DNA of 64,000 bases from Escherichia coli (GTDB lineage Bacteria > Pseudomonadota > Gammaproteobacteria > Enterobacterales > Enterobacteriaceae): NCBI RefSeq assembly GCF_029227855.1, contig NZ_CP074356.1. One strand, given 5' to 3'. Position numbers and translations under genes: made by a program. Below the pieces are notes generated by a model. That model saw only the letters and a program-made list of their open reading frames with translations. It was not told the DNA's origin and did not search any database. Positions 51,046 through 52,689 of this stretch are shown in pieces. How positions within the stretch are numbered: position 1 is the stretch's first letter; the number at the start of each line of letters is the position of its first letter.

Positions 51046-51099
51046 TAACATATATGGACGCTCCCGGAATGCAATGCTTTCTTCAGTTATGTAATAAAA

Positions 51100-51300
51100 C
51101 GGGTAGGTGCAGCCATATATCCGGTTTCTGATGGGATTTTTATCCCGAACCATGATGAAATCCGCCAGGCAGGTACCAATCATCCTCTACGGGCTAACTT
51201 GCCCTTGTTACCTCTCGGTGTATCCTGCCTGCGGTCTTACCTGTTTTGCCATCTTCTGAAGTCACTTGCACCTACCAGGACGTTAACTTTTTTTCAGCAC
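51100..51300 (-). ncRNA. Candidate structured non-coding RNA in the IS110-family right end (possible bridge-RNA-type guide); strand and ends unverified
   Basis: 10-bp inverted repeat gggtaggtgca (51101-51111) / tgcacctacc (51267-51276) can close an RNA domain of about 170 nt; T-run at 51290-51296; sits in the long 3' non-coding end where IS1111-group elements encode their ncRNA. Inference only. Confidence 0.3.
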
Positions 51301-51324
51301 CTCGTCAGATTGACTGACCTTGTG

Positions 51325-52350
51325 TCAGGCGAGCTGCCGAGGTTGATATTCAGTATTGTGTGACAATATTGACCACATGATCCTCGCTGTTTTTGCCGCC
51401 ATGGCGACAACAGCTACATTGTAGTGCTTCCGCTCAAGGAGTCCCTGAAGCCAGGAATTCTCCTCAACCGCGCCGTTTCGGTTGACCCAGGCGGTAAGTG
51501 CGCGTGCGCCGTGAACCAGCAGGTATCGGAAATATCCATCTCCACGTTTGCTGATCCCTCCCAGTTGCTGTTTCCCGCCGCTGGAATGTTCCTTTGGTGT
51601 CAGCCCCAGCCATGAAGCGAACTGCTTTGCGGTACTGAATTGTCGGGCATTACCCACTGCTGCTACCACATAAGTGGCCGTTAGCATGCCAACCCCCGGG
51701 ATCTTGGCCATTCTCTGGCAGGCTTCCTGCGTTCTATACCAGGAGGCCAGAGCTTCTTCTACCTGTTTAACTTGTTCTTCAAGTTCCCGGATATGTTTAG
51801 ACTGTCTGTAGATGCTGGTTCTGACAAAGGGAGATAAACCATTTTCGCCATCCTCCAGAATGGCTGGCAGCTCACGGGTTAAATGGTTTTGTCCGGCCGC
51901 AATCGTAATACCAAACTCAGCAAGTGTGGCTCTTAAACTATTGGCACAGGCAATCCGCTCACGGATAAGTATTCCCCGTTCAGTGTGTAACGCTAAAACG
52001 GCCTGCTGCTCTTCGGTTTTTATCTGAACAAAACGCATATTCGGACGGGTTACCGCTTCGCAGATTGCTTCAGCATCTGCTGCATCCGTCTTGTTCGTTT
52101 TCACATAAGGCTTCACATACTGCGGAGGTATGAGTTTTACCTCATGACCATAGCGGGTGAATAATCGCGCAAAATAATGACTGGATGAGCAGGCTTCCAT
52201 GCCAATCAGACAAGGTTCCAGTTGAATCACAAACTGAACAAACTTAGCCCGGGTGAGCTTTTTACGCAAAATAGTATGGCCTTCATGATCGACACCATGA
52301 AGCTGAAAAACGTTCTTTGCCAAGTCGATACCAAGAGTTGATACTTTCAT
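51325..52350 (-). CDS. IS110-family transposase/recombinase (RuvC-like DEDD domain plus C-terminal Tnp domain)
   Basis: 341 aa; N-terminal MKVSTLGIDLAKNVFQLHGVD (the GIDxAK motif typical of IS110 transposases), acidic residues spaced as in DEDD RuvC-like folds, C-terminal GGISKRGDGYFR serine motif; AGGAG RBS 8 bp upstream of ATG. Confidence 0.85.
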   Translation of the reverse strand: MKVSTLGIDLAKNVFQLHGVDHEGHTILRKKLTRAKFVQFVIQLEPCLIGMEACSSSHYFARLFTRYGHEVKLIPPQYVKPYVKTNKTDAADAEAICEAVTRPNMRFVQIKTEEQQAVLALHTERGILIRERIACANSLRATLAEFGITIAAGQNHLTRELPAILEDGENGLSPFVRTSIYRQSKHIRELEEQVKQVEEALASWYRTQEACQRMAKIPGVGMLTATYVVAAVGNARQFSTAKQFASWLGLTPKEHSSGGKQQLGGISKRGDGYFRYLLVHGARALTAWVNRNGAVEENSWLQGLLERKHYNVAVVAMAAKTARIMWSILSHNTEYQPRQLA

Positions 52351-52689
52351 GTGGACGCTCCTAATTTTTCAGGACGTATTGCAACGATCCAGTCTGGTAC
52401 TTTGATACCGTAAAATCTGGAGCGTCCATCTCATTATCCCTGTAAAACGCGCCCTCAGCCCACATCCATGTGGGCTGCCCCGGCCTTCAGGGAACGCCTC
52501 GGCGATTTTGACGCCACCAACACCGGTGCGGTTTGTAATTAAAGCGCAAGAATATCTTTAAATGAAAATGAATACCCTACCGATCCTTATGCATAACATT
52601 TCCTTTTAATTGCAACTTTACTCGTCCTTCCGCTTTCAGTAGTGTGTCATCGCGCATTTCGACTTCATCTTTGCAAGGACTGGGTTTTC

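What the first reader, a model, noticed from the sequence alone, without database searches (positions are those of the whole stretch)
51050..52435. IS110/IS1111-family element inserted between aqpZ and ybjE
A 341-aa IS110-type recombinase (51325-52350, minus strand) is bracketed by 11-bp inverted repeats ATGGACGCTCC (51054-51064 and 52419-52429). A third copy of the GGACGCTCC core sits on the transposase RBS (52351-52361). The element has a short 5' end and a roughly 260-bp 3' non-coding end, the geometry of the IS1111 subgroup. The aqpZ-ybjE spacer is about 1.87 kb here against about 0.5 kb as I recall for K-12, so this is a strain-specific insertion into core DNA. IS110-family recombinases are the RNA-guided bridge recombinases, so each new family member with an intact non-coding end is a candidate programmable system.
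Basis: partly seen in the sequence, partly recalled or inferred. Interest (0 to 1): 0.62.

Follow-up and report, generated by a model that had tools for sequence, protein, structure and literature searches.

The report
ISEc81 insertion sequence in TRIP1a repeat
This is an intact copy of ISEc81, a catalogued RNA-guided (IS1111-type) insertion sequence, sitting at its usual landing site in a conserved hairpin repeat (TRIP1a) between aqpZ and lysO/ybjE, so the finding is real but ordinary.

Summary
A 341-aa IS110-family recombinase gene (51325-52350, minus strand) lies between 11-bp inverted repeats, with a short 5' end and a 273-nt 3' non-coding end. K-12 and most E. coli lack the insertion.

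Empty-site alignment gives exact junctions. 1386 bp were inserted (1384-bp element plus one copy of an AT core), and the repeats are subterminal.

The element is not new. Its recombinase is 337/341 aa identical to ISfinder's ISEc81, which Durrant et al. already list as IS1111-group with a predicted bridge RNA in the right end.

New detail found here:
- Every chromosomal E. coli copy examined sits at the same position and orientation, in the tip of one hairpin of the TRIP1 repeat family (TRIP1a, TRIP1c and a diverged copy next to yegH).
- The 3' non-coding end encodes a roughly 150-nt structured RNA. Across 20 relatives, 24 of 32 base pairs show compensatory changes.
- Four loop segments of this RNA match the target right side, target left side, left end and right end. 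They co-vary with those sequences in relatives, including a naturally retargeted Klebsiella aerogenes variant.
- The "third repeat copy" pairs with the left-end repeat in the mRNA leader and buries the ribosome-binding site.

Interest is low: a known element of a known kind. The TRIP1 targeting and a weak TRIP1 resemblance to TwoAYGGAY RNA are modest side observations.

The parts
51052..52435 (-). ISEc81 isoform, 1384 bp. It is flanked by an AT core dinucleotide on each side (51050-51051 and 52436-52437).
   Evidence: Empty-site alignment. Copies at 99.6-100% identity occur in 179 of 5426 E. coli genomes. The recombinase is 337/341 aa identical to ISEc81.
51325..52350 (-). Recombinase/transposase gene, 341 aa. 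Motif residues are D9, E52, D89 and D92 (DEDD) and G249-L-x-P-x4-S257-G258.
   Evidence: The C-terminal domain matches solved ISCro4 (9t56, E 2e-8) and IS621 (8wt6, E 1e-7) recombinases. Residue roles are inferred from motifs described in PMC11187229 and PMC11208158.
52419..52429 (-). Left-end subterminal inverted repeat ATGGACGCTCC, 6 nt (AATGAG) inside the left end.
51054..51064 (+). Right-end subterminal inverted repeat, 2 nt (AT) inside the right end.
52351..52361 (-). GGAGCGTCCAC immediately upstream of the ATG. It contains the ribosome-binding site and pairs with the left-end repeat in the mRNA leader.
   Evidence: Fold of 52339-52437 (-): -30.2 kcal/mol, z -3.6, with a 10-bp stem between the two copies. 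A matching pair is seen in relatives, e.g. L036 ATGGTCGCCCC / GGGGCGACC.
51106..51255 (-). Bridge RNA / seekRNA region, a conserved structured RNA of about 150 nt in the 3' non-coding end.
   Evidence: Alignment of 20 relatives. 96% of cells are paired against at most 48% for slid controls. 24 of 32 pairs show compensatory change, and 0 of 500 shuffles reach the observed values. The whole non-coding end folds with z -3.0.
51206..51216 (-). Right-target guide GAGAGGUAACA, on the 5' strand of the target-binding loop. It pairs with the top strand T+GTTACCTC(G)C to the right of the core.
   Evidence: 11/12 complementarity, reached by 5 of 300 shuffles. The K. aerogenes variant changes A to G to match its target GCTGCC. 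In relatives, cognate pairing scores 6.6 against 3.9 for non-cognate.
51181..51189 (-). Left-target guide UAG(A)GGAUG, on the 3' strand of the target-binding loop. It has the same sequence as the top strand TACAGGG-AT-G and so pairs with the bottom strand, with one bulged A and two wobbles.
   Evidence: ISYen1 lacks the bulge. The K. aerogenes variant's U-to-C change gives all Watson-Crick pairs with its target GCAGGGAT. In relatives, cognate scores 7.5 against 4.7 for non-cognate.
51155..51161 (-). Right-donor guide AUUUCAU. It pairs with left-end positions 2-8 (ATGAGAT, one G.U).
   Evidence: It co-varies with the left end in relatives: TGAAAT, TGGAAT, TGACAT, TAAGAT.
51115..51120 (-). Left-donor guide AUAUAU, the same sequence as the last 4 nt of the right end plus the AT core.
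   Evidence: It co-varies with the right end plus core in relatives: ATATAT, ATGTA, ATACAA, ATATAA, ATATAG.
51069..51074 (-). TTGCAT, a candidate -35 hexamer. On circularisation it would lie 16 bp from a TATAAT created across the right-end/core/left-end junction.
   Evidence: Read directly from the sequence. Junction promoters were shown for ISEc11 (PMC11187229) and IS621 (PMC11208158). Not tested here.
50870..51049 (.). TRIP1a repeat, aqpZ-side arm (the target DNA, split by the insertion).
   Evidence: This part of the spacer recurs a median of 3 times per E. coli genome. TRIP1a is located between aqpZ and ybjE according to PMC10888264.
52438..52557 (.). TRIP1a repeat, lysO-side arm.

Best explanation
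The region is an intact copy of ISEc81, an IS1111-group member of the IS110 family. It is inserted without target duplication at the AT in ...ACAGGG-AT-GTTACC.... That site is the tip of the second hairpin of the TRIP1a repeat between aqpZ and lysO.

The element most likely moves as described for ISEc11 and IS621:
1. The DEDD/serine recombinase excises it as a circle, abutting the right and left ends around the AT core.
2. Circularisation creates a TTGCAT-16-TATAAT promoter across the junction.
3. An RNA made from the 3' non-coding end holds two pairs of guide segments.
4. One pair base-pairs with the two strands of the TRIP1 tip on either side of the core. The other pair base-pairs with the element's own ends.
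5. Recombination between circle and target therefore happens only at this site and in one orientation.

In transcripts that read in from outside, the left-end repeat pairs with the ribosome-binding site. This should keep recombinase translation low.

What is shown:
- the anatomy and exact junctions;
- the identity with ISEc81;
- site and orientation specificity across chromosomal copies in E. coli, Kluyvera, Enterobacter and Klebsiella;
- the conserved RNA structure;
- co-variation of the guides with targets and ends.

What is inferred: the circle, the junction promoter, RNA production, catalysis and translational control.
For: Family and identity:
- Searches place the protein in the family.
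- It is 99% identical to ISEc81.
- ISEc81 is listed as IS1111-group with a right-end bridge RNA.

Junctions and spread:
- Empty-site alignment gives the junctions and the AT core.
- The element is in 179 of 5426 complete E. coli genomes at 1-4 copies.

Site specificity:
- The same position and orientation is used in TRIP1a, TRIP1c and the yegH TRIP1-like copy.
- The same holds for TRIP1-like elements of Kluyvera, Enterobacter cloacae and Klebsiella aerogenes.
- Junction counts are 92/93 genomes (aqpZ/lysO), 93 (dusC) and 77 (yegH).

RNA structure: 96% of cells paired, 24 of 32 pairs compensatory, 0 of 500 shuffles as good, slid controls at most 48%.

Guides:
- The right-target guide is 11/12 complementary to the target (5 of 300 shuffles reach this).
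- The K. aerogenes variant has compensating guide changes for a changed target.
- Against ISYen1, the closing stem is fully compensated while the loop strands differ.
- Cognate guide-target scores exceed non-cognate scores in relatives of 40-53% protein identity.
- The donor guides co-vary with the ends.

Leader stem.

Mechanistic precedent: PMC11187229, PMC11208160 and PMC11208158.
Against: - No experiment or transcript data exist for this element. RNA boundaries, the promoter and activity are all inferred.
- The left-target guide needs a bulged A and two wobble pairs in E. coli.
- The right-target guide match alone is only modestly significant (about 2% of shuffles).
- The E. cloacae variant carries two guide changes that make its match to its main target worse.
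- Three copies do not fit cleanly:
  - E. cloacae L014 lies in a non-TRIP1 site.
  - The deleted E. coli plasmid copy L012 lies in a site that matches the target on the right side only.
  - The right flank of the ISYen1 plasmid copy L011 does not fit its predicted guide.
- Rfam has no matching family to confirm the RNA.
- I could not compare DNA with the ISfinder ISEc81 entry. I compared only its protein, as reprinted in a supplement.
Confidence: 0.9

Rival explanations
1. Target choice is made mainly by the protein recognising the folded TRIP1 hairpin (a structure-specific site, as once proposed for attC- and REP-targeting IS1111 members). On this reading the non-coding-end RNA plays a scaffold or regulatory role rather than guiding.
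For: - All preferred targets are tips of conserved hairpins.
- The E. cloacae variant's guides fit its target worse than the E. coli guides would.
- The left-target guide match is imperfect.
Against: - Guide changes in the K. aerogenes variant compensate for target changes.
- In relatives at 40-53% identity with unrelated targets, the same loop strands match each element's own flanks, typically over 8-12 nt.
- The off-site copy L012 keeps the right-side match GTTACCTC. The left flank of off-site copy L014 ends in GGAT, the last two target bases plus the AT core.
- Experiments on ISEc11, ISPa11 and ISKpn4 show RNA-determined targeting (PMC11187229).
Confidence: 0.07
2. The copy is an immobile relic, fixed in a lineage and no longer able to move, so the anatomy is historical only.
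For: - Only 1-4 copies per genome.
- Some copies are frameshifted or deleted (L006; L012).
- No direct evidence of activity.
Against: - The ORF is intact with all motif residues present, and both ends and the RNA are intact.
- Copies are 99.6-100% identical yet occupy three different loci, in different combinations, in unrelated strains and hosts.
- Closely related copies occur in four genera.
Confidence: 0.1
3. The element belongs to the IS110 subgroup proper (like IS621), with its guide RNA in the left end upstream of the gene.
For: It hits the same Pfam and NCBIfam families as IS621.
Against: - The left end is only 85 nt, and most of it folds into the stem that buries the ribosome-binding site.
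- The conserved structured RNA with guide segments is downstream of the gene.
- The 11-bp repeats are subterminal.
- ISEc81 is listed as IS1111-group with a right-end RNA.
Confidence: 0.02

Closest known systems
ISEc81 (ISfinder; IS110 family, IS1111 group)
   Same: - The recombinase is 337/341 aa identical.
- The length class is the same (341 aa).
- It is listed with a right-end bridge RNA.
By ISfinder's usual practice this copy would be an isoform of ISEc81.
   Different: There are four amino-acid differences (A91T, W288R, E297K, I328M, written window residue, position, ISEc81 residue). The DNA of the ISfinder entry was not available for comparison. I found no published description of its target or guide segments.
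ISYen1 (Yersinia enterocolitica)
   Same: - About 67% nucleotide identity over 96% of the element.
- Identical subterminal repeats and nearly identical ends.
- The same RNA scaffold and donor-side segments.
   Different: The target-loop strands and the closing stem differ (the stem is fully compensated). The flanks differ, so it uses a different target.
ISEc11 (IS1111 family; seekRNA shown experimentally, PMC11187229)
   Same: - The long non-coding end lies downstream of the gene, and the repeats are subterminal.
- The RNA has a top-strand match 5' of a bottom-strand match, and the two matches overlap at the insertion point.
- A junction promoter forms on circularisation.
   Different: ISEc11 is 1433 bp with a 339-aa recombinase and uses a short linear target. 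The element here is 1384 bp and targets a hairpin tip. The two are different elements.
IS621 bridge recombinase (IS110 group; PDB 8wt6)
   Same: - The same two protein domains.
- Four guide segments that read both strands of target and donor around a 2-nt core.
- A left-target strand that, in relatives, runs on into donor-like sequence, resembling the 'handshake' guides.
   Different: - In IS621 the RNA is in the left end.
- The order of guides within a loop is reversed.
- The IS621 core is CT, not AT.
- Here the donor guides lie in a junction and a 3' tail rather than a simple internal loop.
- Only the C-terminal domain is detectably similar by sequence (E 1e-7).
ISPa11, ISPpu9, IS4321 and IS5075 (IS1111 members that land in repeats)
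   Same: They insert site- and orientation-specifically into a repeated, hairpin-forming host or transposon sequence.
   Different: Their targets are REP elements or Tn21-type terminal repeats. Here the target is the TRIP1 repeat family of Enterobacteriaceae.

Membership tests
IS110 family | N-terminal DEDD (RuvC-like) domain, Pfam PF01548 | tested here: met
   E 3.8e-15, residues 6-146. D9, E52, D89 and D92 are present.
IS110 family | C-terminal domain PF02371 with the G(L)-P----S/T-G motif | tested here: met
   E 1.1e-24. The motif is GLTPKEHSSG at 249-258. The domain aligns to ISCro4 and IS621 solved structures.
IS110 family | Site- and orientation-specific insertion with no target duplication beyond a short shared core | tested here: met
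   Only an AT is shared at both junctions. The same site and orientation is used at all TRIP1-type loci examined.
IS1111 group | Subterminal inverted repeats of 7-17 bp | tested here: met
   The repeats are 11 bp and lie 6 nt and 2 nt inside the ends defined by the empty site.
IS1111 group | Long non-coding region downstream of the recombinase gene | tested here: met
   273 nt downstream against 85 nt upstream.
IS1111 group | Non-coding-end RNA with a top-strand target match 5' of a bottom-strand match | tested here: met
   The right-target guide (pairs with the top strand) lies 5' of the left-target guide (pairs with the bottom strand) in one loop. This is a computational result only.
IS1111 group | Circular intermediate with a junction promoter; RNA required for movement | not testable with these tools
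   The sequence would give TTGCAT-16-TATAAT on circularisation. There is no experimental data.
ISEc81 (same element / isoform) | Recombinase at least about 98% identical to the reference | tested here: met
   337/341 aa, 98.8%, against the sequence printed in the PMC11187229 supplement.
ISEc81 (same element / isoform) | DNA at least about 95% identical to the ISfinder entry, with the same ends | not testable with these tools
TwoAYGGAY RNA (Rfam RF01731), for the target repeat TRIP1 | Score at or above the Rfam gathering threshold | tested here: not met
   30.6 and 29.8 bits against a gathering score of 43, E 0.03-0.05, on intact TRIP1a copies.
TwoAYGGAY RNA (Rfam RF01731), for the target repeat TRIP1 | Two adjacent hairpins with AYGGAY terminal loops inside a longer closing helix | tested here: inconclusive
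   Hairpin 1 has loop CAUGGAUG. Hairpin 2 has ACA-GGGA-UGU (AGGGAU, with R at the Y position). The helices show compensatory changes across four genera.

The most novel reading that the evidence does not exclude
The ISEc81 lineage uses the tip of the TRIP1 repeat as a dedicated landing pad across Enterobacteriaceae. TRIP1 is a conserved structured element of unknown function that may be a distant relative of TwoAYGGAY RNA. The element's guide RNA tracks changes in that hairpin: the K. aerogenes variant is a natural retargeting pair. Neither the TRIP1 targeting nor the TRIP1/TwoAYGGAY resemblance appears in the papers I could search. IS copies sitting in TRIP1a and TRIP1c could also contribute to the reported TRIP1a/TRIP1c chromosomal inversions.
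Probability: 0.45. Interest if true: 0.35.

Novelty: already known. Interest (0 to 1): 0.2.

Why it matters
As a finding it matters little. ISEc81 is catalogued, its family mechanism was worked out in 2024, and its right-end bridge RNA was already predicted.

The work here has three small values.
- It gives exact ends, the core and the guide segments for a natural IS1111-type element. It also gives a natural retargeted partner from K. aerogenes. Together these could serve as a test pair for programmable-recombinase work.
- It shows that TRIP1 repeats are IS targets. That bears on how TRIP1 copy number and TRIP1-mediated inversions are interpreted.
- It flags TRIP1 as a conserved structured element with a weak resemblance to TwoAYGGAY.

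Tried and rejected
- **Rfam scan of the region.** There is no bridge/seek RNA family. The only hits were chance-level: cow-rumen-3 at E 0.03 and mir-611 at E 0.37.
- **Identity with ISEc11.** Rejected. ISEc11 is 1433 bp with a 339-aa protein and a linear target. Its reference record CP053751 is not in the collections.
- **First guess at the left-target guide.** I took non-coding-end positions 84-92 (ACAGGUAAG) to be this guide. I rejected it because the segment is invariant in relatives that have other targets, so it is scaffold.
- **First guess at left-donor recognition.** I read AUAUAUGGCUGC as pairing with the top strand of the right end. The family-wide pattern replaced this: AUAUAU has the same sequence as the right end plus core, and GGCUGC does not co-vary.
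- **ISYen1 plasmid copy as a guide test.** Its right flank does not fit its predicted guide, so it was not used as evidence for target guides.
- **Names from the protein cluster.** All 596 members are called only 'IS110 family transposase'. The name came instead from a paper supplement.
- **Promoter and terminator scan.** Nothing informative turned up on the element's strand.
- **Small ORFs inside the non-coding end** (56, 50 and 54 aa). I treated these as mechanical ORFs, because the region is a conserved structured RNA.
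Full report
**1. Checking the observation**

- The only long ORF between aqpZ (50119-50820, +) and lysO/ybjE (start 52692, +) is 51325-52350 on the minus strand, 341 aa.
- It matches both Pfam domains of IS110-family enzymes: PF01548 at E 3.8e-15 and PF02371 at E 1.1e-24.
- It matches NCBIfam NF033542 'IS110 family RNA-guided transposase' at 357.6 bits against a cutoff of 140.
- ATGGACGCTCC occurs at 51054-51064 (+) and 52419-52429 (-). A 10/11 copy lies at 52351-52361.
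- With at most one mismatch the whole window holds four hits against 0.93 expected, and no shuffle reached four.
- The aqpZ-lysO spacer is 1871 bp here. In K-12 MG1655 it is 494 bp with nothing annotated in it.

**2. Exact junctions**

I joined the two flanks and searched complete E. coli genomes. I then aligned three uninterrupted spacers with the joined flanks.
- The empty site reads ...GCGCGAGGTAAC-AT-CCCTGTAAAACGCG....
- The occupied site reads ...GGTAAC-AT-[AT ATGGACGCTCC ... GGAGCGTCCAT CTCATT]-AT-CCCTG....
- So 1386 bp were inserted: a 1384-bp element (51052-52435) plus one extra copy of an AT dinucleotide.
- There is no other duplication.
- The 11-bp repeats are subterminal: 2 nt inside the right end and 6 nt (AATGAG in the element's orientation) inside the left end.

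**3. Identity**

The element is widespread but in a minority of strains.
- It is in 179 of 5426 complete E. coli genomes, at 1-4 places per genome. In 175 genomes the best copy is at least 99% identical. It is annotated only as 'IS110 family (RNA-guided) transposase'.
- The 90%-identity protein cluster has 596 members from E. coli, Enterobacter cloacae, Klebsiella aerogenes and Kluyvera, all with generic names.
- The closest named DNA relative in the plasmid collection is ISYen1, at 67% identity over 96% of the element.

The name came from the supplement of Siddiquee et al. 2024 (PMC11187229), which reprints ISfinder transposases.
- ISEc81 matches the N-terminus exactly and is 337/341 aa identical overall.
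- Durrant et al. 2024 (PMC11208160) list ISEc81 as group IS1111 with the predicted bridge RNA in the right end.
- Only three survey papers mention ISEc81.

This is therefore an isoform of a catalogued element, not a new family member. It is not ISEc11, the IS1111 member studied experimentally, which is 1433 bp with a 339-aa protein and a linear target.

**4. Where it lands**

Part of the spacer (about 50870-51049 plus 52438-52557) recurs a median of three times per E. coli genome. This is the TRIP1 repeat of Rudd (1999). Li et al. 2024 (PMC10888264) place TRIP1a between aqpZ and ybjE and TRIP1c next to yohI (dusC). They do not mention IS insertions.

Six other E. coli copies of the IS lie either between yohP and dusC (TRIP1c) or next to yegH, in a diverged TRIP1-like copy that is not among that paper's five types. 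In every case the junctions are the same and the orientation relative to the repeat is the same.

Junction-specific searches count the following:

| Junction | Genomes |
|---|---|
| aqpZ-IS | 92 |
| IS-lysO | 93 |
| IS-dusC | 93 |
| IS-yegH | 77 |

These three loci account for most of the 327 chromosomal places.

In Kluyvera (three copies), E. cloacae (paaX region) and K. aerogenes (three loci), near-identical elements sit at the equivalent position of TRIP1-like repeats.

An alignment of eight reconstructed or intact TRIP1 elements gives a long branched hairpin. Seventeen of its 66 pairs show compensatory change. The insertion point is the small apical hairpin ACA-GGGA-UGU of the second arm, which is GCA-GGGA-UGC in K. 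aerogenes.

Exceptions exist:
- An E. cloacae copy lies in a non-TRIP1 site (L014).
- An internally deleted E. coli plasmid copy (L012) has the usual sequence on its right flank (GTTACCTC) but not on its left.

**5. The RNA in the 3' non-coding end**

The 276 nt from the stop codon to the right end fold better than shuffles (z -3.0). Rfam has no matching family.

*ISYen1 comparison.*
- The 8-bp stem GCAGGCAGG/CCUGCCUGGC becomes GCAAGUGAG/CUCACUUGGC, fully compensated.
- The segments flanking it, and the whole downstream half, are invariant.
- The two strands of the enclosed loop differ.

*Wider comparison.* A protein-based scan of one genome per species returned 34 loci. Many are at only 40-53% protein identity, yet they carry the same RNA scaffold downstream of the gene.
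- In the alignment of 20 RNAs, RNAalifold predicts 32 pairs, 24 of them with compensatory changes.
- 96.2% of cells are paired, against 31-48% when partners are slid by 1-3 columns.
- None of 500 shuffles reaches the observed values on any measure.

*Layout.*
- An outer helix (GAUGG/CCAUC).
- A small hairpin (GGUnAGACC).
- An 8-bp stem plus a 3-bp helix closing a large internal loop, which is capped by a GGGC/GCCC hairpin.
- A second domain: a 4-bp helix plus a hairpin.
- A single-stranded 3' tail.

**6. Guide segments**

Sequences below are written in the element's orientation. The target is ...GCGTTTTACAGGG-AT-GTTACCTCGCGCC.... The circle junction would be ...GGGAGCGTCCATAT-AT-AATGAGATGGACGC....

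- **Right-target guide.** The 5' strand of the big loop, GAGAGGUAACA (window 51206-51216), is complementary to the top strand T-GTTACCTC(G)C. With the adjoining stem base C, 11 of 12 positions match. Five of 300 shuffles reach this.
- **Left-target guide.** The 3' strand, UAG(A)GGAUG (51181-51189), has the same sequence as the top strand TACAGGG-AT-G if one A is bulged and two wobbles are allowed. It would therefore pair with the bottom strand.
- **Fit with published rules.** The two matches overlap at the core, and the top-strand match lies 5' of the bottom-strand match. This is the arrangement reported for IS1111 seekRNAs and the reverse of IS621.

Evidence that these are guides:
- The K. 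aerogenes variant sits in ...TTTGCAGGG-AT/AC-GCTGCCTC.... Its RNA carries exactly two changes in these strands. GGUAACA becomes GGUAGCA, which restores a C-G pair, and the neighbouring change becomes G.U. The U before AGAGG becomes C, which turns wobbles into Watson-Crick pairs.
- In distant relatives with unrelated flanks, the same two loop strands match each element's own right flank (complementary) and left flank (same sequence), typically over 8-12 nt.
- The longest-run scores are 6.6 for cognate against 3.9 for non-cognate pairs on the right side, and 7.5 against 4.7 on the left.
- In those relatives the left strand runs on into AAUGAG, the first bases of the left end. This resembles the 'handshake' bases of IS621 (inference).

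Donor-side segments behave the same way.
- AUUUCAU (51155-51161) is complementary to left-end positions 2-8. It changes with them across relatives: TGAAAT, TGGAAT, TGACAT, TAAGAT.
- AUAUAU (51115-51120) has the same sequence as the last four bases of the right end plus the core. It changes with them: ATATAT, ATGTA, ATACAA, ATATAA, ATATAG.

Two things do not fit. The E. cloacae variant has two guide changes that worsen the match to its main site. The ISYen1 plasmid copy's right flank does not fit its guide.

**7. Other anatomy**

- The 'third copy' on the ribosome-binding site is an inverted repeat of the left-end repeat. The 99-nt leader folds into a 10-bp stem between them (-30.2 kcal/mol, z -3.6).
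- This stem would hide the GGAG in transcripts entering from outside. This is an inference by analogy with other insertion sequences. A co-varying pair is visible in relative L036.
- Joining the ends in silico gives TTGCAT, a 16-bp spacer, then TATAAT across the junction. ISEc11 and IS621 form such junction promoters. This was not tested here.
- The protein keeps D9, E52, D89 and D92 and the GL-P----SG motif with S257.
- Its C-terminal domain aligns with the solved ISCro4 and IS621 recombinases.

**8. Verdict**

The element is ISEc81, already catalogued and already predicted to carry a right-end bridge RNA, so novelty is 'already known' and interest is low.

What this analysis adds:
- the exact ends and the core;
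- the TRIP1-tip target;
- an explicit four-segment guide assignment backed by co-variation;
- a natural retargeted variant.

**9. Side observation**

Intact TRIP1a copies give a sub-threshold Rfam hit to TwoAYGGAY RNA: 30 bits against a threshold of 43, E 0.03. The hit is on the same strand as the recombinase gene. The IS insertion point falls in the second AYGGAY-like loop. This is suggestive only. I found no paper linking TRIP1 to that motif.

Noticed in passing
window 50870-51049 + 52438-52557; intact copies L001:467-606 and L002:478-617 (minus strand): The TRIP1a repeat gives a sub-threshold Rfam match to TwoAYGGAY RNA (RF01731): 30.6 and 29.8 bits against a gathering score of 43, E 0.03-0.05. 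It has two adjacent hairpins with loops CAUGGAUG and CAGGGAUG. TRIP1-like elements in E. coli, Kluyvera, E. cloacae and K. aerogenes keep the fold, with 17 of 66 pairs compensatory. I found no paper linking TRIP1 to this motif.
   Followed up: partly
L005, L007-L009 (E. coli, next to yegH): A diverged TRIP1-like repeat next to yegH is a frequent ISEc81 site (77 genomes carry the IS-yegH junction). It is not among the five TRIP1 types (a-e) listed by Li et al. 2024.
   Followed up: partly
L020-L025 (Klebsiella aerogenes): The two junction dinucleotides differ: AT at the left junction and AC at the right. This suggests recombination between a donor AT core and a target whose core differs at the second base. 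No empty site was available to check.
   Followed up: no
L015-L019 versus L014 (Enterobacter cloacae): The E. cloacae variant has two changes in its target-guide strands that fit its main site (paaX region, GTTACCTC) worse. One copy lies in a non-TRIP1 site (...TTTTTCATGG-AT-GCTTGCCTT...) that contains the TTGCC favoured by the changed guide. Whether this is drift or retargeting is unexplained.
   Followed up: partly
L003 (E. coli AVS0343, aqpZ-lysO spacer): An 89-column gap in the alignment shows that this strain's TRIP1a has lost the whole central part of the repeat, including the IS target tip. H48 looks similar, with 83% coverage.
   Followed up: no
L012 (E. coli IncFIB plasmid NZ_CP076707): A plasmid copy at 96.8% identity has an internal deletion (inverted-repeat span 1309 bp against 1376). 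Its site matches the usual target only on the right side (GTTACCTC).
   Followed up: no
L040 (Francisellaceae MAG): The right end of a distant relative is followed by a tandem repeat of its own last 27 or so bases (GTTGCGAATTCTGGACGGCCCATATAT, twice). This could be an assembly or recombination oddity.
   Followed up: no
window 51328-52350 (protein): There is a weak, far sub-threshold NCBIfam hit to the TIGR-Tas RNA-guided endonuclease model (31.7 bits against a cutoff of 100) over residues 130-253.
   Followed up: no
whole window versus NZ_AP045174.1 (E. coli JNEC-KY178): Both junction queries from this window are 100% identical to this genome, at about 3,274,011-3,276,021. The window probably comes from this strain or a very close relative. 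That genome also carries a copy identical over the 1376-bp IR-to-IR span, between yohP and dusC.
   Followed up: no
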